DNA from: a virus
Lineage: Duplodnaviria > Heunggongvirae > Uroviricota > Caudoviricetes
DNA length: 26,524 nt
Virus record (IMG/VR): IMGVR_UViG_2541047721_000003
Strand: one strand, 5' to 3'
The notes beneath the pieces are model-generated. The model searched no databases, was not told the origin of the DNA, and saw only the letters and a program-made list of their open reading frames with translations. This document shows positions 15,855 through 21,787 of this stretch, piece by piece; position 1 is the first letter of the stretch, and the number at the start of each line of letters is the position of its first letter. The translations under genes were made by a program, and so were the position numbers.

Positions 15855-16814
15855 TTACTCCTTGTCCATTGCGTACAGCCCATTAACCAGAGCAAACTGT
15901 GGCACCCCGTCCGCGATGAAAGTCGCATTAACTCCGCAGGCTTCGCGGATAGCGGGTGCCACAATCTCCGCCCCGCCACCGACAACCATCACCCGCCCGT
16001 AACCCGAAAAACCCGCCAGCGCGCGGATCACTCGTTGTTTCAGTGTTTCTTCCTTTTCACGAATAACCGCCATCAGGCTGTCGTAATGCGCGTCATTGTG
16101 GATGTGCTGGCGCAGCCAGGCTTCATCATGGCGATGTTCGATAATGGTATTGGCGATGTGGTGACTGGTGCGCATACCGTTAGTGGCCATCACCGACAGT
16201 ACGGCATCGGCCATCAGAGAAACGCCTACGTGTGGATCGCAAAACACCTGGCTGATACCTGCCAGTTGCCCCTGAACCTTTGCCACATCCAGCGTGGTTC
16301 CGCCCAAATCCACAATCAGCAGGGATTCAAACGGACTCATGTCAGCCAGTGCCTTAAAGCCAGCCGGAATGGATTCAGGCATAACCCGCACGTTACGGAT
16401 AGTGAATGCTTCGCCGTTCTGGTACTCCACCGGGCGCATAACGTTCGCTTTTTTGCGGTTGATGTTGGCCATGTCCGGCTGTGCGTTTGTGTCGAAATAC
16501 TCGCTCAGTGGCAGGGTGACAACCACATCCACCTCCTGTGGCGTGATGCCTGATTTGACCAGCGCGTGATGAATGGCAATTACATTCACATCGCTGTACT
16601 GGTATTGCGTGTCGGTCGTCTGGACAAATCGAACGCTGACCGGATCAAAACCATAGCGCACGCCATCAAGCATGTAGTTTGCGGGCTGCATGCCACCGAA
16701 CGGCGCAGACCATTCCGATTTGAAGCTGTTCGGGCTGATGGCGTTGCGGCGTTCGCCGTTCTCAGTCCATGCCAGCTTGATGTTGGTGGAGCCGTCGTCG
16801 ATACAAATTTTCAT
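15855..16814 (-). CDS. parM: ParM/StbA-like actin-type segregation ATPase
   Basis: 319 aa. MKICIDDGSTNIKLAW N-terminus and segments ISPNSFK, YSDVNV..HHAL, VMPE.IPAG, LLI.DLGGTTLD, GVSL, V.GGGAE, LVNG closely parallel R1 ParM (about 320 aa, from memory). AAGGA RBS. Confidence 0.85.
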   Translation of the reverse strand: MKICIDDGSTNIKLAWTENGERRNAISPNSFKSEWSAPFGGMQPANYMLDGVRYGFDPVSVRFVQTTDTQYQYSDVNVIAIHHALVKSGITPQEVDVVVTLPLSEYFDTNAQPDMANINRKKANVMRPVEYQNGEAFTIRNVRVMPESIPAGFKALADMSPFESLLIVDLGGTTLDVAKVQGQLAGISQVFCDPHVGVSLMADAVLSVMATNGMRTSHHIANTIIEHRHDEAWLRQHIHNDAHYDSLMAVIREKEETLKQRVIRALAGFSGYGRVMVVGGGAEIVAPAIREACGVNATFIADGVPQFALVNGLYAMDKE

Positions 16815-16845: not shown

Positions 16846-16956
16846 TTTACGGGGTTTTTAAATCCCGTTTTTGCCTGTTTTATGCGCGCTTCATATATCG
16901 CGGCGCGTTTTTTGCTCATTTACGGGTTTTGTGAATCCCGTTTCTGTCTGTTTTTT
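16846..16956. repeat. parC-like region: two about 38-bp direct repeats flanking a putative promoter
   Basis: TTTACGGGGTTTTTAAATCCCGTTTTTGCCTGTTTTAT (16846..16883) and TTTACGGGTTTTGTGAATCCCGTTTCTGTCTGTTTTTT (16919..16956), each with an ACGGG...CCCGT inverted sub-element. Lies immediately upstream of parM and overlaps the last codons of A. Confidence 0.5.
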
Positions 16957-19713
16957 GTTTCCACTGGTCAGGCTACCCCGCAGCAGGTCTGCTTTGCGGC
17001 GGGCGCGTTCAGTGGTTTCACTGATTCTCTGTGCGTGCTCTGCGTCACGGATGGCGCGCAGCATGTCAGAAAGCACGGTAACGGGGGTTTTCATGGTGTT
17101 CTGGTCCTGCTGAAGTGTGGATGCCAGGCGTGCGGCGGCTTCGGGGTCTGATGCCCCCAGCTGTTCCAGATAGCCGGCGACCGGGTTATGGCGGATCTCC
17201 GTGCTGCTTACGCCGTGATTACGGCTCAGGCGCTGCCAGAGCTGCGTGATTCGGCTGTCCGGGCGGGTATCCGGTTTGCGTACAATTTCAAATCCCTGCG
17301 GTGCAATGATGCTGCCGTCAACGTACAGGCTGCCGCCCCGTAACAGGTGCTGCATCTGCTGTTCACCGATATGCAGGCCGAGAGATTCGGCAGACTCCCG
17401 CCATTCTTTAGCGAGTAATTCGTGGTTATCAGGCAAAGGCCGCTGCTGTTTGCGGCTCTGTGTCCAGCTCTGCATTTCATCACTGCTGTTTTTTGCCTGT
17501 TTATCATGAAGCGAACGCATCAGCGCCCGGCGTTCGTGCCGTTTCAGTGAGCGCATCCATTCGTTCACTTCAACGCCATCAGGGAGCTGCGGCCACGGTG
17601 CTGGCCGTTCTTCCGGCTGTTCTGCCCCGTTGTTGTTCGTTTCCTGTACACGGGGACAGTTATTGCCACGAGTCCAAGGGGCGGCAGGGCCGCCCTGAAG
17701 GTCAAAACCATTTTCGCGGGCGCTGTCTTCCGTTTCCGGTTTACGTCTTACCAGTTTCCAGTTATCCGGATGCGTGCACACACGGGAGGATTCCCCGATG
17801 AGTGGTGACCAGATCCCGTAAATCTGTACGCTCTGTTCGCCGTAATCATTCAGCTCATCTGCGAGGTCGTAGGCGGTGCGAATCAGGTAGTCTTTGCGTG
17901 GAACAAGTACGCCGCCCTGTTTTTCAATGTAGGTGGCAAAACACCCGGCATCGGCGGCAGCGAGTACCGCATCCATTGCGTCATCTTTCAGTCGTTGCGG
18001 GCCTTCCGGGTTGCGTGCCATCTGGCTGGCAAGGCGGCGCAGTTCACGCCACACCTGACGGGAGGGGATGCCAAAGAACTGGAACTGGCGGACCCGATGA
18101 AGGCGCGCCCAGCCGATGGCGCGCTCCACACTCTCGGCCATTGATTTTCCGGTTTCGTGGTCAACGCGTGGCTTGCCCGTTTTCGGGTCGATGCCATCCA
18201 CGGCGCGGCTGTCCAGGTTCTTTCCGATGTAGGTCGCGATATAGCTGGTTGGTGTGCCTTTTGAGCCGTCGACGTACTCCGCTTTAAAACGCGGAGTTAT
18301 GTCATCGCCCAGCTCGTGGCGGTCTTCCTGAATGGCAATATCGCAGACGTGGGACACGATGGTTTCAATCTCGTCCGGATGTGCAAAGACCATCATATGC
18401 CAGTGCACAGTGCCGTCATGGTGAGGCTCCACCGTGCGGATGCCATACCAGCGAAGACCGTCGCGGTTCAGTTTTTTGCGGACCGCCGCAAAAAAAGTGT
18501 TAACCAGGTAATCGCTGGAGTCGCGCATGGTGGCCCCGTTCCATTTGGGATTCGGATGACCGTTCTCCGTTGTTGCGTGGTATTTTGACGGGCAGGTAAC
18601 GGTCAGAAACACCGCTCTGTCGCTACGGGCTTCGGCCAGAAGTTCCAGTCCCTTCATGGTGGCCATCATTTCTGCCTTACGGTGAACCGGGTTACTTACT
18701 CCCGCGTAATACACTGTCTCGAGATCAATCGTGAACCCGTCTTCATTTTCCAGCATGAAACTTTTCAGGAAATCGCGTGTTTTCTCGCGCTGTGCGCGAA
18801 ACTCGCTTAACGCGTCCTGGCTCAGATAGGGCGATGTTTTTCTGGAAACCAGACAGGCGGCGCGGAGTTGTTCTTCCCGCCACTCGCAACGTAACAGCCA
18901 CAGTTTGCGTTTCCACCATTCCGCACAGGTCAGGCGAAGGATTGCGCCCGGCAGCAGTTCTGTGTCCGGTTCGTTCCTCCGGTCTTTGTCTGTTGTCAGT
19001 GCGTCATAATGCGGAGGCATGGCGTGCAAGTGTAACGCCATGCGGGCTAGCATCTGATACGCCTTCAGCGTTACATCCATGGTCAGCTCGCCATCAGTCG
19101 CGCCAAAACCATCGCAGAGTTTTTCGAAGGTGCTGCTGAACATCGCCGCCGTCATGGTGGCCAGCGTCTGTATCTGGTGTTTGTTGAGTTGCGGCAGGTA
19201 AAGCAAATCGTCCAGGCGTTCGCGTCCGGCAAGGGACCGATAACCCGGTGTCAGCCAACGGCTGTCGGTGCGGTCCAGACGTACGAATATTTTGCGCAGG
19301 GTTCCGCGCGCGTAGCGTTCAGCCTGCCAGCTCTTTTTGCCTTTCTGGCGATCGGCTTCCTGTTTTTTGCGCAGGAAGGAGAGGTGGCGAATAAGCGGAT
19401 CGCGCAGATAGGACGGCAGCAGGCGCAGCGAGGCCATGGCTTCATCCACCGCGCCGCGTGCCTGTTTTCTGGCGTCTCCTGCCAGTGTGATGGTTTTGTC
19501 CTGTTTTTCCTGTGCGTCCAGGTTTTTATTAATCAGGTTGCCCAGCGGCGTTGCGGAGAACGCCGCATCAGCCATTTCCTGGCGGCGCTCGTTCTCTGCC
19601 CGGTAGGCATCCAGCCAGGAGGAAAGCGCGGATTCAGGTGCGGGGATCCCCGTTCCTTCACGCCCCACTGCGTGGCGCGGTTGTTGCCAGTCCCTGATGT
19701 ACTCTGCCGTCAT
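16891..19713 (-). CDS. A: Replication initiation endonuclease gpA (rolling-circle, HUH superfamily)
   Basis: 940 aa. HUH-type motif VHWHMMVF and paired catalytic tyrosines Y-x3-Y (SYIATYIGK, about residues 491/495 by manual count), as in the P2 A protein. Longer than P2 gpA (about 761 aa). Confidence 0.85.
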   Translation of the reverse strand: MTAEYIRDWQQPRHAVGREGTGIPAPESALSSWLDAYRAENERRQEMADAAFSATPLGNLINKNLDAQEKQDKTITLAGDARKQARGAVDEAMASLRLLPSYLRDPLIRHLSFLRKKQEADRQKGKKSWQAERYARGTLRKIFVRLDRTDSRWLTPGYRSLAGRERLDDLLYLPQLNKHQIQTLATMTAAMFSSTFEKLCDGFGATDGELTMDVTLKAYQMLARMALHLHAMPPHYDALTTDKDRRNEPDTELLPGAILRLTCAEWWKRKLWLLRCEWREEQLRAACLVSRKTSPYLSQDALSEFRAQREKTRDFLKSFMLENEDGFTIDLETVYYAGVSNPVHRKAEMMATMKGLELLAEARSDRAVFLTVTCPSKYHATTENGHPNPKWNGATMRDSSDYLVNTFFAAVRKKLNRDGLRWYGIRTVEPHHDGTVHWHMMVFAHPDEIETIVSHVCDIAIQEDRHELGDDITPRFKAEYVDGSKGTPTSYIATYIGKNLDSRAVDGIDPKTGKPRVDHETGKSMAESVERAIGWARLHRVRQFQFFGIPSRQVWRELRRLASQMARNPEGPQRLKDDAMDAVLAAADAGCFATYIEKQGGVLVPRKDYLIRTAYDLADELNDYGEQSVQIYGIWSPLIGESSRVCTHPDNWKLVRRKPETEDSARENGFDLQGGPAAPWTRGNNCPRVQETNNNGAEQPEERPAPWPQLPDGVEVNEWMRSLKRHERRALMRSLHDKQAKNSSDEMQSWTQSRKQQRPLPDNHELLAKEWRESAESLGLHIGEQQMQHLLRGGSLYVDGSIIAPQGFEIVRKPDTRPDSRITQLWQRLSRNHGVSSTEIRHNPVAGYLEQLGASDPEAAARLASTLQQDQNTMKTPVTVLSDMLRAIRDAEHAQRISETTERARRKADLLRGSLTSGNKKQTETGFTKPVNEQKTRRDI

Positions 19714-19719
19714 AGTGAT

Positions 19720-20085
19720 TTACTTCGTCATGCCATTCAGGGTGTCGCGGCAGACTGTAGCCAGCCGCTGAATTTCCAGCACGGTGTCTTCTGTGTCGGC
19801 ATGGCGATGTGTGATGCGGATGCTGTCGGCAATCACATCGACGATTGCAGAGGATGGGCGCTGGTAAATGCCAATAACGGACGGGGTGCCACCTTCAATG
19901 CGGTAAAGCCTGTAATTTCCCTCGTGGCTGTCAATCATGTAGCGACCATCAATAACAATCTTTCCGTCAGCGAGCTGCGGTACAGGCAGGGATTTCAGGT
20001 ACATGTCATAACGATCACGCACGCGAGCGGCAAGATCACGTTCTGTGTTGAGCAGGTATTCAAGAAAGTCGTTGGCGAGAATCAT
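19720..20085 (-). CDS. Hypothetical early protein, 121 aa
   Basis: ATG start; stop 7 nt upstream of the A start. No recognisable motif. Confidence 0.5.
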   Translation of the reverse strand: MILANDFLEYLLNTERDLAARVRDRYDMYLKSLPVPQLADGKIVIDGRYMIDSHEGNYRLYRIEGGTPSVIGIYQRPSSAIVDVIADSIRITHRHADTEDTVLEIQRLATVCRDTLNGMTK

Positions 20086-20157
20086 TGCGGCAATCCTCTT
20101 GTTACAGATGTGCGAAGGCCTCCCGCCGCAAGGTGCAGGAAAGGCCCGGAACAGGAA

Positions 20158-20388
20158 TTAATGGAGTTTGTTTTGCTGCTGGAAGAGTTGTTGCAGCTCG
20201 CGCAGATCATCCGCCAGATAGCTGAAAACAGAGGCGGAATAGATGTTCGATAGCGCGTGGCTGCGCTCATGCAGCATATTGATGTGCATGATTTGCGCGA
20301 CGCGTGATGCGCGGAAAAGTCTACGGTTGATTTCAGTCTGGATGTGACGACGCTCCGCGATAGCGCGGCGCTGTTTGCGGTTTGCCAT
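20158..20388 (-). CDS. Hypothetical early protein, 76 aa (basic N-terminus)
   Basis: ATG at 20388 with AAGGGG RBS. N-terminal MANRKQRRAIAERR suggests nucleic-acid binding. Unverified. Confidence 0.45.
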   Translation of the reverse strand: MANRKQRRAIAERRHIQTEINRRLFRASRVAQIMHINMLHERSHALSNIYSASVFSYLADDLRELQQLFQQQNKLH

Positions 20389-20565
20389 GGTGTGGCCCCT
20401 TGTGTAGTAAGTTGTGAAAACTCACCATCCAGAGCTGCGAAACTGTGGGTGGCGAGACGTACGAGGTTCGCAGTACCGGCTACACAAGAACCCGGCCCGA
20501 CCGAAGTCGGCCCCGTACGCCCCGCCATAATTCTGACGCGAAAAAAACGTGGCAATACAGTACGC

Positions 20566-20588
20566 ACAAAAAAACCGCTGGCGCGGTT
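20566..20588 (-). terminator. Intrinsic terminator (minus strand)
   Basis: Stem AACCGC/GCGGTT with a 4-nt loop, followed on the minus strand by a run of 8 T (A-run 20567..20574 on plus). Confidence 0.55.
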
Positions 20589-20725
20589 GTGCGCTTGTGT
20601 AGTCAGCAGGCTGCGAAACCCGGCACCCGTTTTATGAGGTGCAGCGAGAATGTAACCTGACTGATTGCGGCATGGCAAGCGGTTTTTTTGTGAGAACGGC
20701 ATACTAAAAAAATCCTGATACTGCT

Positions 20726-20750
20726 CCGGCCAGCGATTTTCACTGGCCGG
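20726..20750. terminator. Hairpin immediately after the SPFH gene stop (possible bidirectional terminator)
   Basis: 8-bp stem CCGGCCAG/CTGGCCGG with a 9-nt loop, 6 nt downstream of the TAA at 20757..20759. T-rich on the plus side; the T-run on the minus side is displaced by about 15 nt. Confidence 0.45.
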
Positions 20751-20756
20751 GTTTAA

Positions 20757-21587
20757 TTACTTCACCGGAACAAACGGAACAGCGGTGTTGCTGGTCATGT
20801 ATTGCGGCAGCGTGCCGTTCCATTTGTTGATTGCTTCCAGCTCCATAACGCCGGGATTCTGGCGCAGAGCTTCACCGCGTAAACGAATGGCGTCGGCTTC
20901 AGCCTGGGCTTTTGTGCGAATGGCATCGGCTTGTCCGGCAGCTTCTGCGCGCAGCATGTTGGCTTCAGCTTCGCGTTGCTTGACTTCCTGTTCACGTTGC
21001 AGGGTTTTCTGGTTTGCCGTGACTTTGGCATTAATGCTGTCGATAACGGTTGGTGGGTATTCCGGCTTACCCACATAAGAGAGGCTCATTACCTGAATGC
21101 CGATAGGTGTCATTTCTGCCTGAATGTCTTTAAGTGCTGAATCCAGCAGTTCAGACTTGCCACCGTCGATAAATTTATCGGTGGTCATTTTGCTGGCCAG
21201 TCGGTTGAGTGCGTCGGCGATCTTCTGGCGCAGGTCAGTGTCGGTAATGTCGTCCACGCCTTTGCGGTAGGTCTGAAACACCGTGGTAACTTTGGATGGA
21301 TCAACTTTGTAGGCCACGCCGATGTGATAGCCGATGGTTGTGCCGTCACTCATCTGGAAGTTGAACGGCTCATCGTAAGTCTTCATTTGTTTGAAAGTCG
21401 GGAAGATGTAAACCTCTGTATTCCAGCCTGTCCAGTAGCGGCCAACGCCAACTACTTCGCCGACGCCTTTGTCGTCGCCCAGTTTGTTGACTTTGATTCC
21501 CACATTACCTGGCTCAACGCGATCGCAACCAACCAGCAGGATGGCGGCAAAAAGCGGGAGAATCTGAAAGAGTTTGAATTTCTTCAT
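20757..21587 (-). CDS. SPFH/band-7 (stomatin/prohibitin/HflKC-like) lipoprotein
   Basis: 276 aa. N-terminal signal with lipobox (ILLVGC). Central region consistent with an SPFH domain. C-terminal Ala/Glu/Gln/Arg-rich coiled coil (QREQEVKQREAEANMLRAEAAGQADAIRTKAQAEADAIRLRGEA) typical of HflK/HflC/YqiK-type proteins. ATG overlaps the stop of the upstream small gene. Confidence 0.78.
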   Translation of the reverse strand: MKKFKLFQILPLFAAILLVGCDRVEPGNVGIKVNKLGDDKGVGEVVGVGRYWTGWNTEVYIFPTFKQMKTYDEPFNFQMSDGTTIGYHIGVAYKVDPSKVTTVFQTYRKGVDDITDTDLRQKIADALNRLASKMTTDKFIDGGKSELLDSALKDIQAEMTPIGIQVMSLSYVGKPEYPPTVIDSINAKVTANQKTLQREQEVKQREAEANMLRAEAAGQADAIRTKAQAEADAIRLRGEALRQNPGVMELEAINKWNGTLPQYMTSNTAVPFVPVK

Positions 21588-21787
21588 TGCTTGATTTCCT
21601 TGATGTACTTACTGAAAAGGCGAACAACGCCTGCCGGGTACAGCATGGCAATGAAAATGCCCAGCAATACCAGGAAGGAGCTGTCTGATGAAATCATTCG
21701 GGGGAGTAGTCCTGCATACAGAATGAAAGAGACGAGGACGCATACCAGCGCCCACATGTATGCGCGAAACCAGGTCTTTTTGTTCAT
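21584..21787 (-). CDS. Small membrane protein, 67 aa, two predicted TM helices (possible NfeD-like partner of the SPFH protein)
   Basis: Hydrophobic segments WALVCVLVSFILYAGLL and FLVLLGIFIAMLYPAGVV. ATGA overlap on both sides. Confidence 0.55.
   Translation of the reverse strand: MNKKTWFRAYMWALVCVLVSFILYAGLLPRMISSDSSFLVLLGIFIAMLYPAGVVRLFSKYIKEIKQ

What the first reader, a model, noticed from the sequence alone, without database searches (positions are those of the whole stretch)
20389..20756. Structured 368-bp intergenic region inside the early operon: two terminators and a thrice-repeated 9-mer
Between the SPFH module and the genes preceding A lie a hairpin right after the SPFH stop (20726..20750), a canonical minus-strand terminator with an 8-T run (20566..20588), and three copies of CTTGTGTAG (20398..20406 and 20594..20602 direct, 20481..20489 inverted). 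The opposite-frame ORF here is low-complexity and looks non-coding. The arrangement suggests regulated read-through (attenuation or antitermination) into the A gene, or a small RNA.
Basis: partly seen in the sequence, partly recalled or inferred. Interest (0 to 1): 0.45.

Follow-up and report, generated by a model that had tools for sequence, protein, structure and literature searches.

The report
Phage antisense-RNA immunity switch (IsrK/C4)
The "structured intergenic region" is a known kind of phage RNA switch: a small decoy RNA and an antisense RNA whose loops pair with the ribosome site of an anti-repressor gene. Here it sits unannotated in a P2-like prophage found in about a quarter of complete E. 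coli genomes.

Summary
The hairpin, the terminator and the three 9-mers are all present; two 9-mer coordinates are off by one, and the T-run is 7 bases, not 8.

The region holds two minus-strand RNA genes that pass Rfam's curated thresholds:
- an IsrK-type sRNA at 20642-20566, with its own promoter and the "canonical terminator";
- a C4-type antisense RNA at 20532-20445.

The 9-mers are the b1 / b' / b2 triad of the P1/P7/P4 immunity system. b' lies in the C4 hairpin loop, b1 in IsrK, and b2 abuts the Shine-Dalgarno of the downstream 76-aa gene.

Both triads covary three ways across relatives: 17 P88-like loci carry at least 10 specificities, and about 130 viral contexts carry 77.

The regulated gene is a homologue of the P4 epsilon derepression protein, and the prophage's repressor is P2-C-like.

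The most likely mechanism is that C4 blocks translation of this anti-repressor, with polar effects on orf121 and gene A, while IsrK titrates C4.

This is a new member of a known kind. Databases mis-annotate it as an "ash family protein" or "transcriptional regulator".

One unexplained extra: the reading frame from the C4 5' AUG stays open for 148 codons across the epsilon-like gene and ends in an ATGA overlap with the next gene.

The parts
20726..20750 (-). Stable hairpin 6 nt after the SPFH stop codon. It is the 3' end of the SPFH cargo cassette, not part of the conserved RNA module.
   Evidence: -21.8 kcal/mol, z -4.36. It is conserved only in relatives that carry SPFH. The module's homology boundary is at 20692.
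20649..20678 (-). Promoter of the IsrK-like sRNA: -35 TTGCCA (20678-20673), 18-nt spacer, -10 TACATT (20654-20649). The predicted +1 is G at 20642. An A-tract lies just upstream.
   Evidence: The position is conserved while the sequence diverges in lambdoid relatives (TTGATT/TACACT, TTGACT/TATATT). Function is inferred.
20566..20642 (-). IsrK-type sRNA, equivalent to P4 seqA and to the c4-a1b1 element. It has two 5' hairpins, a single-stranded stretch and an intrinsic terminator.
   Evidence: Rfam RF01394 at 65.2 bits (cut-off 50). Fold. The same element is found in P4 and Gifsy-1.
20611..20617 (-). a1 (UUCGCAG), in the loop of IsrK hairpin 2. It is complementary to a' of C4.
   Evidence: 7 bp, 5 pairs with changes on both sides, 99.2% of cells paired.
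20594..20602 (-). b1 (CUACACAAG), in the single-stranded part of IsrK.
   Evidence: 9 bp, 6 pairs with changes on both sides, 100% paired.
20568..20589 (-). Intrinsic terminator of IsrK: stem-loop 20589-20575 followed by U7 at 20574-20568.
   Evidence: The stem is invariant in the 17 P88-like loci.
20445..20532 (-). C4-type antisense RNA, equivalent to P4 CI RNA and Gifsy-1 STnc1160. It has a 17-bp outer stem and two inner hairpins.
   Evidence: Rfam RF01695 at 83.2 bits (cut-off 45). MFE equals the consensus fold at -47.7 kcal/mol, z -4.46. Stem covariation.
20480..20488 (-). b' (CUUGUGUAG), in the loop of C4 hairpin 2. This is the inverted copy of the 9-mer.
20467..20473 (-). a' (CUGCGAA), in the unpaired segment between hairpin 2 and the 3' strand of the outer stem.
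20435..20441 (-). a2 (UUCGCAG), the first target element on the mRNA just 3' of C4.
   Evidence: 7 bp, 5 pairs with changes on both sides, 96.6% paired.
20396..20407 (-). b2 (CUACACAAG, 20407-20399) running into the Shine-Dalgarno AAGGGG (20401-20396). The start codon is at 20388-20386.
   Evidence: 9 bp, 5 pairs with changes on both sides, 96.7% paired. In about 80 modules the start codon lies 10-11 nt after b2.
20158..20388 (-). 76-aa gene, a homologue of the satellite phage P4 epsilon (helper derepression protein). It is the presumed anti-repressor and the direct target of C4.
   Evidence: Pfam PF25738 at 31.8 bits (cut-off 27). 29% identity to P4 epsilon, E 8e-9. All 83 fetched relatives have the RNA module directly upstream.
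20082..20528 (-). Open frame of 148 codons starting at the invariant AUG in the C4 5' leader (the 'orf45' start of Gifsy-1). It overlaps the epsilon-like gene out of frame and ends in an ATGA overlap with orf121. Upstream the frame stays open to an ATG at 20702.
   Evidence: Translation was not tested.
16891..20085 (-). orf121 (20085-19720) and replication gene A (19713-16891). These downstream genes are presumably affected through polarity or translational coupling.
   Evidence: Any regulatory link is inferred by analogy with P4 and P1.

Best explanation
The region is a P1/P7/P4-type antisense-RNA immunity module embedded in the early operon of a P88-like (Xuanwuvirus, P2-family) prophage.

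1. A promoter at 20678-20649 drives a 77-nt IsrK-type sRNA that carries elements a1 and b1 and ends at the intrinsic terminator.
2. Transcripts that read through the terminator, or arrive from the early promoter, contain the C4 element. By homology, this element is processed into a stable RNA of about 80 nt.
3. C4 displays b' in a hairpin loop and a' in an unpaired segment. These pair with a2 and b2 on any mRNA that extends into the next gene.
4. b2 abuts the Shine-Dalgarno sequence, so pairing blocks translation of the 76-aa P4-epsilon-like protein.
5. That protein is predicted to inactivate the prophage's P2-C-type repressor. C4 would therefore keep the anti-repressor off in a lysogen and give sequence-specific superinfection immunity.
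6. The IsrK RNA offers identical target sites (a1, b1) and can titrate C4, switching the anti-repressor on.
7. Untranslated mRNA is expected to be prone to Rho-dependent termination before orf121 and A.

Shown here: family membership, RNA structures, geometry, three-way covariation, homology of the target gene, and strict linkage of the module to that gene.

Inferred, not tested: processing of C4, trans action, the polar effect on A, and the anti-repressor activity of the 76-aa protein.
For: Family membership:
- Rfam gathering-level hits to C4 (83.2 bits) and isrK (65.2 bits) lie side by side on the minus strand.
- The same tandem pair is found in all 7 fetched phage relatives, in P4 itself upstream of epsilon, and in Gifsy-1 upstream of anrP.

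Structure:
- The C4 minimum-energy fold equals the family consensus, with b' in a loop and a' unpaired (z -4.46).

Covariation:
- In 17 P88-like loci, a1:a', b1:b', a':a2 and b':b2 are 96.6-100% paired.
- Each helix has 5-6 pairs changed on both sides.
- Slid controls are about 40% paired, and 0 of 500 shuffles reach the observed values.
- In 129 viral contexts carrying 77 (a',b') combinations, perfect sites occur at stereotyped positions for 84% (a1), 71% (b1), 89% (a2) and 67% (b2). With a non-cognate a'/b' the figures are 19%, 5%, 8% and 4%.
- Across about 80 modules the start codon lies 10-11 nt after b2.
- Cognate duplexes are about -14 kcal/mol (b) and -9 to -10.5 (a), against -3.4 to -9.6 for non-cognate combinations; one a'-target combination (P88 C4 on the window target) reaches -9.6, overlapping the cognate a range.

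Target gene and repressor:
- The target gene is in Pfam PF25738 with P4 epsilon.
- The prophage repressor is 36% identical to P2 C, E 2e-23.
- P2, which lacks the epsilon-like gene, has no such RNAs.
- All 83 epsilon-like loci have the module directly upstream.

Experimental precedent:
- The G28/C162 and G31/C159 compensatory mutants of Gifsy-1 (PMC4825925) map exactly onto a1:a'.
- IsrK supplied in trans raises anrP translation 139-fold.
- An approximately 80-nt species processed from read-through transcripts is seen in that system.
Against: - There are no expression data for this prophage. The promoter, terminator efficiency, C4 processing and trans action are all inferred.
- The IsrK fold alone is not more stable than shuffles (z -0.5).
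- The Rfam c4-a1b1 model scores only 20.4 bits here, below its 46.7 cut-off.
- The Gifsy-1 authors explain their data by a cis structural switch plus translation of an ORF through the C4 element, not by C4 acting in trans. Constitutive STnc1160 did not counteract IsrK toxicity there.
- The anti-repressor function of the 76-aa protein rests on 29% identity to P4 epsilon.
- No LexA box or other input signal was found near the module.
Confidence: 0.8

Rival explanations
1. P4-style control. The main output of C4 pairing with a1/b1 and a2/b2 on nascent transcripts is premature, Rho-dependent transcription termination that keeps replication gene A off. The translational block of the epsilon-like gene is only the trigger, or is secondary.
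For: P4 has the same isrK-like plus C4-like pair upstream of epsilon and its replication gene. The P4 mechanism is summarised in PMC4825925. The gene order here (RNA module, epsilon-like gene, small ORF, replication gene) parallels P4.
Against: This does not exclude the best explanation. Here b2 sits directly on the epsilon-like ribosome-binding site, whereas in P4 the b2-controlled ORF is eta. No Rho-dependent site can be identified from sequence.
Confidence: 0.35
2. Gifsy-1-style cis switch only. The C4 element is a cis-inhibitory leader, or a translated ORF, of the read-through mRNA. It is held inactive by pairing with the IsrK part in cis. The only trans-acting RNA is short IsrK, an activator, and the processed C4 species is a by-product.
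For: Mutational and native-gel data for Gifsy-1. The a1:a' helix of that work is the element seen here. The C4-AUG frame is kept open.
Against: A cis a1:a' switch does not need a2 and b2 to covary with a' and b', yet they do. In P1, C4 acts in trans as an immunity factor. From my own knowledge of Citron & Schuster and Ghisotti/Deho, the same holds for P7 and P4.
Confidence: 0.15
3. The region is simply protein-coding: an 'Ash family' protein or 'transcriptional regulator' of about 206 aa, as several database records annotate it.
For: ORF 20702..20082 matches Pfam PF10554 Phage_ASH (24.9 bits, below the 26 cut-off) and PHROG 'transcriptional regulator' families. PGAP calls it an 'ash family protein' pseudogene. 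The frame is unusually free of stops.
Against: The matched residues coincide with the two RNA genes. The conservation pattern is base-pair covariation with G-U tolerance, not amino-acid conservation. An internal promoter and an intrinsic terminator sit inside the 'gene'. The frame is broken in some lineages (L126, L051, L040). The P4 'cI protein' ORF that seeded these annotations corresponds to the C4 hit in P4; from my own knowledge, its product is an RNA.
Confidence: 0.05
4. One reading: an attenuator or antiterminator in which the 9-mers are recognition sites (for example for a protein) that control read-through of two terminators into gene A.
For: A real terminator lies in the early operon upstream of A, and read-through must occur for A to be expressed from the early promoter.
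Against: The inverted copy changes in a compensatory, Watson-Crick or G-U way with the direct copies. That is RNA-RNA pairing, not a protein-binding site. The first hairpin belongs to an unrelated cassette.
Confidence: 0.03

Closest known systems
Satellite phage P4 immunity region (seqA - CI RNA/seqB - seqC - kil/eta - epsilon - orf151 - alpha)
   Same: - The same two Rfam families occur in the same order and on the same strand: isrK 60.8 bits and C4 74.9 bits.
- The downstream gene is from the same Pfam family as epsilon.
- A small ORF and then the replication gene follow.
- The frame from the C4 AUG ends at the start of the next gene.
   Different: - In P4 the b2/seqC site controls eta (65 aa), with epsilon further downstream. 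Here b2 sits on the epsilon-like ribosome-binding site itself.
- The replication gene here is P2-type gpA, not the alpha primase.
- The host element is a complete P2-like helper-type phage, not a satellite.
- The a/b specificity differs.
Gifsy-1 isrK - orf45/STnc1160 - anrP locus (Hershko-Shalev et al. 2016, PMC4825925)
   Same: - IsrK has its own promoter and terminator, followed by a C4-family element (69 bits).
- b2 plus the Shine-Dalgarno sequence lies directly before an anti-repressor gene.
- The a1:a' pairing was validated there by compensatory mutants.
- The AUG in the C4 leader starts an ORF that ends in an ATGA overlap.
   Different: - The target is a different anti-repressor type (AnrP, not epsilon-like).
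- orf45 is 45 codons and ends at the target gene's own ATG. Here the frame runs 148 codons, passes over the target gene out of frame, and ends at the following gene.
- The host is a lambdoid phage, and the locus lies next to Q.
P1/P7 immI operon (a1 b1 - c4 - a2 b2 - icd - ant)
   Same: - This is the founding member of Rfam C4.
- An antisense RNA with a' and b' pairs with a2/b2 at the ribosome-binding site of the first downstream gene and so controls an anti-repressor (PMC8546580; details from my own knowledge of Citron & Schuster 1990/1992 and Heinrich et al. 1994/1995).
- Heteroimmunity is set by the a/b sequences.
   Different: - The downstream genes (icd, ant1/2) are unrelated to the epsilon-like gene.
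Lambdoid Stx-phage and related isrK-C4-Rha/Ant modules
   Same: These have identical architecture and geometry and about 70% nucleotide identity. They are found between the cII-like gene and O.
   Different: - The target is a Rha, AntA or Bro-N type protein, in frame with the C4 AUG.
- An 11-nt spacer segment is absent.
- Some contigs carry 2-3 tandem modules.

Membership tests
Rfam RF01695 C4 antisense RNA | Covariance-model score at or above the curated gathering score | tested here: met
   83.2 bits against 45, full-length match 1-87.
Rfam RF01695 C4 antisense RNA | Long outer stem enclosing two hairpins, supported by covariation | tested here: met
   The MFE equals the consensus. In the 17 P88-like loci all stems are 100% paired, and outer stem and hairpin 1 have compensatory changes. 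(83-sequence alignment) shows the same stems conserved.
P1/P7/P4-type C4 immunity system | Loop elements a' and b' complementary to a2 and b2 at the ribosome-binding site of the downstream gene | tested here: met
   7 bp and 9 bp (plus 2 G-U). b2 abuts the AAGGGG Shine-Dalgarno sequence. Covariation.
P1/P7/P4-type C4 immunity system | Second copy of the targets (a1, b1 / seqA) upstream of the antisense RNA | tested here: met
P1/P7/P4-type C4 immunity system | C4 is processed from a longer transcript (RNase P) and acts in trans as an immunity factor | not testable with these tools
   Precedent only: an approximately 80-nt processed species in Gifsy-1, and P1/P4 from the literature.
P1/P7/P4-type C4 immunity system | Regulated operon encodes an anti-repressor | tested here: inconclusive
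   Homology to P4 epsilon (PF25738 at 31.8 bits against 27; 29% identity, E 8e-9). The repressor is P2-C-like. Activity was not tested.
Rfam RF01394 isrK | Covariance-model score at or above the gathering score, with a terminal intrinsic terminator | tested here: met
   65.2 bits against 50. The terminator is called independently.
Rfam RF01394 isrK | Independent promoter giving a primary sRNA transcript | tested here: inconclusive
   A consensus-type promoter lies 6 nt upstream of the model's first base. Its position is conserved in diverged relatives. No 5'-end data are available.
Rfam RF01394 isrK | Hfq binding | not testable with these tools
   -
Rfam RF03163 c4-a1b1 | Covariance-model score at or above the gathering score | tested here: not met
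   20.4 bits against 46.7 here. P4 scores 44.1 and Gifsy-1 48.1. The a1/b1 elements are present functionally, but the window sequence is not filed under this model.
P4 immunity region | Nested kil/eta ORFs between seqC and epsilon; alpha primase downstream | tested here: not met
   b2 is directly at the epsilon-like start. The downstream replication gene is Phage_GPA.
Pfam PF10554 Phage_ASH (protein) | Protein-level match at or above the gathering score | tested here: not met
   24.9 bits against 26 for ORF 20702..20082. The matched stretch coincides with the RNA genes.

The most novel reading that the evidence does not exclude
The RNA module may also be read by ribosomes. The frame that starts at the invariant AUG in the C4 5' leader is the experimentally supported 'orf45' start of Gifsy-1.

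In P88-like phages this frame is kept open for about 148 codons. It runs out of frame across the whole epsilon-like gene and the spacer, and it stops in an ATGA overlap with orf121, which is itself 6 nt from gene A. This suggests that translation through the switch is coupled to the replication genes, bypassing the C4-controlled epsilon ribosome-binding site.

An in-frame ATG about 60 nt upstream of the IsrK start is present in 10 of 12 lineages. It could let ribosomes on early-promoter transcripts suppress the IsrK terminator and C4 folding.

Transcripts from the early promoter and from the internal promoter would then have opposite fates.
Probability: 0.3. Interest if true: 0.6.

Novelty: new member of a known kind. 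Interest (0 to 1): 0.35.

Why it matters
1. Annotation. This module occurs in 1283 of 5426 complete E. coli genomes. There it is annotated as a hypothetical protein, an 'ash family protein' pseudogene or a 'transcriptional regulator', never as RNA. Pfam PF10554 and several PHROGs appear to model translated RNA genes.

2. Biology of P2-like prophages. P2 itself lacks the module. P88-like phages carry a P4-epsilon-type anti-repressor under antisense-RNA control next to a P2-C-type repressor. This offers a concrete, testable route to induction; P88 was recovered after mitomycin C treatment.

3. Evolution. The immunity and derepression cassette of satellite P4 is shared with phages of its helper family. 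This raises the possibility of RNA-level cross-talk between satellites and helpers.

4. Specificity. The a/b elements form a hypervariable, recombining set: 77 combinations in about 130 contexts, and at least 11 among near-identical P88-like flanks. This is a natural library of orthogonal antisense/target pairs.

Tried and rejected
- LexA-box scan (CTGT-N8-ACAG, up to 1 mismatch). It gave 10 hits against 8.2 expected, none near the module, so no SOS input is evident.
- Second promoter-like site, 20555..20527. Its -10 is the conserved C4 5' leader (AAUUAU) and a start there would truncate the C4 stem. The -35 is altered in P88, and the spacer segment is missing in lambdoid relatives. I treat it as probably fortuitous.
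- orf121 against P4 orf151: no similarity.
- The 206-aa ORF against the P4 'cI ORF' at the protein level: no similarity.
- Genome-contig scan with the epsilon alignment. It returned only 3 loci, so it added little lineage diversity. The viral-contig scan returned only relatives at 92% identity or more.
- My regex for the C4 core missed 22 of 83 loci. nhmmer showed that all 22 carry the full module.
- Stop-codon depletion inside the variable elements. It looked dramatic against the other two frames but is modest against a random expectation of about 9% per element, especially for a2 and b2. I therefore rest the open-frame claim on the shuffling tests and the ATGA overlaps.
- The primary P4 paper PMC176756 could not be read because it is not held.
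- P1 itself was not fetched.
Full report
CONTEXT

The window is a P2-family prophage of the P88 / Xuanwuvirus type.
- At the right end lie an integrase, an HTH repressor that is 36% identical to P2 C, and Cox.
- The early operon runs on the minus strand through small ORFs and an SPFH/Band-7 gene (20757..21587).
- It continues through the region in question, a 76-aa ORF, a 121-aa ORF and a 940-aa gpA replication gene.
- The closest record is Escherichia phage P88, at 93% identity over 20100-21000.

CHECK OF THE OBSERVATION

All three described features exist.
- The hairpin at 20726-20750 folds at -21.8 kcal/mol, z -4.4.
- The terminator has its stem at 20589-20575, followed by seven T, not eight.
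- CTTGTGTAG occurs three times in the window against 0.14 expected. Its positions are 20399-20407 and 20594-20602 on the plus strand and 20480-20488 on the minus strand.

WHAT IT IS

A scan of the whole window against Rfam at curated thresholds gives exactly two hits. Both lie inside the finding and both are on the minus strand:
- isrK, RF01394, at 20642-20568, 65.2 bits against a cut-off of 50;
- C4 antisense RNA, RF01695, at 20532-20445, 83.2 bits against a cut-off of 45.

The "canonical terminator" is the 3' end of the IsrK-type RNA. A sigma-70-like promoter (TTGCCA-18-TACATT, 20678-20649) ends 6 nt before the first base of the isrK model. Its position is kept in diverged relatives that have different hexamers.

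Read on the minus strand, the three 9-mers fall as follows:
- CUACACAAG in the single-stranded part of IsrK (b1);
- CUUGUGUAG in the loop of the second C4 hairpin (b');
- CUACACAAG directly fused to the Shine-Dalgarno AAGGGG of the 76-aa ORF (b2), with the ATG 10 nt further on.

UUCGCAG sits in the loop of IsrK hairpin 2 (a1) and again just 3' of C4 (a2). CUGCGAA sits in the unpaired segment of C4 (a'). This is the a1 b1 - c4(a' b') - a2 b2 anatomy of the P1/P7 immI region and of seqA-CI-seqC in P4.

EVIDENCE FROM RELATIVES

All seven phage relatives first fetched carry the isrK + C4 tandem at gathering level. These are three P88-like and four lambdoid Stx-type phages. In their alignment both triads change completely from phage to phage, and always in a compensatory way. 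P88, for example, has a UUUCCAC/GUGGAAA and b CAACUACAG/CUGUAGUUG. This holds even though P88 is about 95% identical to the window in the flanking genes.

I then scanned viral contigs with a degenerate pattern for the C4 core.
- Among 129 unique contexts with 77 (a',b') combinations, perfect complementary sites (G-U allowed) occur upstream for 84% (a1) and 71% (b1), and downstream for 89% (a2) and 67% (b2).
- When a'/b' are taken from another locus, the figures are 19%, 5%, 8% and 4%.
- The geometry is stereotyped, and the start codon lies 10-11 nt after b2.

In a 17-sequence alignment of the P88-like group, which has at least 10 specificities, I counted the pairs formally.
- a1:a': 7 bp, 5 pairs changed on both sides, 99.2% paired.
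- b1:b': 9 bp, 6 pairs changed on both sides, 100% paired.
- a':a2: 96.6% paired.
- b':b2: 96.7% paired.
- The internal stems of both RNAs are 100% paired.
- Slid controls are about 40% paired, and 0 of 500 shuffles reach the observed values.

G-U substitutions within these helices argue for RNA-RNA pairing rather than a DNA or protein site. Predicted cognate duplexes are about -14 kcal/mol for b and -9 to -10.5 for a. Combinations across the window, P88 and Shae types range from -3.4 to -9.6, and one of them (P88 a' on the window target, -9.6) overlaps the cognate a range, so b discriminates better than a. This predicts heteroimmunity at the RNA level.

THE REGULATED GENE

The 76-aa ORF passes the Pfam threshold for PF25738 "Derepression protein family" (31.8 bits against 27). 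Its founding member is P4 epsilon, which scores 170 bits. The pairwise alignment gives 29% identity, E 8e-9.

P4 itself gives an isrK hit (60.8 bits) and a C4 hit (74.9 bits) upstream of epsilon. The cassette is therefore homologous to the P4 immunity and derepression region.

From my own knowledge (Liu, Renberg & Haggard-Ljungquist), P4 epsilon derepresses P2 by binding its C repressor. Here the resident repressor is a P2 C homologue. P2, which has no epsilon-like gene, has no C4 or isrK hit in its early region.

All 83 further epsilon-like loci fetched have the full RNA module directly upstream: 3 from genomes and 80 from viral contigs. Elsewhere the same module precedes Rha-, AntA- and Bro-N-type proteins and the P4 eta ORF.

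EXPERIMENTAL ANCHOR

In Gifsy-1, IsrK is followed by a C4-family element (69 bits) and then by the anti-repressor gene anrP.

The published compensatory pairs G28-C162 and G31-C159 (PMC4825925) fall exactly on a1 (UUGGCGU, nt 26-32) and a' (ACGCCAA, nt 158-164). The a1:a' pairing is thus experimentally validated in a homologue.

That work also shows three further points:
- IsrK supplied in trans raises anrP translation 139-fold.
- The read-through transcript depends on the isrK promoter.
- An approximately 80-nt species (STnc1160) is processed from that transcript.

MECHANISM PROPOSED

1. The internal promoter makes the IsrK-type RNA.
2. Read-through and early-promoter transcripts supply C4.
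3. C4 pairs through b' and a' with b2 and a2 and occludes the epsilon-like ribosome-binding site. This keeps the anti-repressor off and gives type-specific immunity.
4. IsrK, which carries identical target sites, competes for C4 and can flip the switch.
5. Lack of translation is expected to cause polarity on orf121 and A, as in P4 and P1.

Steps 2 to 5 are inferred for this phage.

The small-RNA alternative is right, and terminator read-through is part of the biology. The 9-mers, however, are an antisense/target triad. The direct target is the 76-aa gene rather than A. The SPFH hairpin belongs to a separate cargo cassette: homology of SPFH-less relatives begins at 20692, and SPFH homologues in P1 and Stx phages begin at 20757.

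UNEXPLAINED EXTRA

The frame beginning at the invariant AUG of the C4 leader (20528-20526) is the "orf45" start of Gifsy-1. There it ends after 45 codons in an ATGA overlap with anrP.

In the P88-like group the picture is different.
- The frame is out of register with the epsilon-like gene.
- It is open for about 148 codons in 17 of 17 loci, across the gene and the spacer.
- In 14 of 17 loci it stops in an ATGA overlap with the next gene, even where that gene and the spacer are unrelated in sequence.

Shuffling tests support selection to keep the frame open.
- Synonymous re-coding keeps the frame open in 0.7-41% of trials per lineage.
- Codon-order shuffling keeps it open in 3-10% of trials per lineage, while the other alternative frame has 1-5 stops.

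The encoded amino-acid sequence is poorly conserved. This suggests selection for ribosome transit rather than for a protein.

In 51 of 81 other modules this frame runs in frame into the regulated gene. Upstream the frame usually stays open through IsrK (88% of contexts). An ATG about 60 nt before the IsrK start is present in 10 of 12 lineages but broken in others.

I could not test translation. I record this as the most novel reading that is not excluded.

NOVELTY AND SCORE

Both RNAs belong to curated families, and the architecture is that of P1/P7, P4 and Gifsy-1. The finding is therefore a new member of a known kind. I found no description of it in the papers on P88 or phiSM.

Three things give it value:
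- it corrects widespread mis-annotation;
- it links the P4 cassette to P2-family phages;
- it raises the open-frame puzzle.

Noticed in passing
window 20082-20702 (-); L129 7143-7406; L008 8168-8584: Protein-family resources appear to model the translated RNA genes. Pfam PF10554 Phage_ASH, several PHROG 'transcriptional regulator/repressor' families, the PGAP 'ash family protein' pseudogene and the old P4 'cI protein' CDS all coincide with the isrK + C4 region.
   Followed up: partly
window 20082-20528 (-): The frame from the C4-leader AUG is open for 148 codons across the epsilon-like gene, out of frame, and ends in ATGA with orf121. It is conserved in 17 of 17 P88-like loci and is unlikely under codon shuffling.
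   Followed up: partly
L045 9643-11222; also L012, L027, L028, L097, L117, L124: Some viral contigs carry two or three tandem isrK-C4-Rha modules about 656 nt apart. Each module has a different a/b specificity.
   Followed up: no
L165 about 250-400: One P88-like locus has a hybrid C4 with two consecutive b' hairpins (CTTTGCTCT then CTTGTGTAG). It is apparently a recombinant between two specificity types.
   Followed up: no
L030 (IMG/VR contig) a1 element: In this P88-type locus a1 (TTCTCAC) no longer matches its own a' (GTGGAAA), while a2 does. Here a1/b1 and a2/b2 have been uncoupled by recombination.
   Followed up: no
window 20757-21787 (-): The SPFH/Band-7 gene plus a small membrane-protein gene form a cargo cassette. 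The SPFH gene is 88-90% identical over its last 210-244 nt (window 20757-21000, as far as the query reached) to genes in P1-like plasmid phages and Stx-converting phages, where it is often annotated as 'serine protease' or 'lipoprotein'. The mosaic junction lies between 20692 and 20757.
   Followed up: partly
window 15855-16814 (-) and neighbours: A ParM/StbA actin-like plasmid segregation gene and a partition-family gene lie downstream of gpA in an integrase-carrying P2-like prophage.
   Followed up: no
window 16891-19713 (-): gpA is 940 aa, against 761 aa in P2. The Phage_GPA domain covers only residues 179-503, and the C-terminal part matches a separate PHROG of unknown function.
   Followed up: no
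L132 (NZ_JBQPOM010000071.1): An 89%-identical epsilon-like gene with its module sits on a contig labelled Vagococcus sp. (Firmicutes). This is probably contamination or mislabelling of an enterobacterial sequence.
   Followed up: no
E. coli genome search with window 20380-20700: The identity distribution of the module in 1283 E. coli genomes is bimodal: 462 at 99% or more and 615 at 80-90%. This is consistent with a few discrete a/b specificity types on otherwise similar prophages.
   Followed up: no
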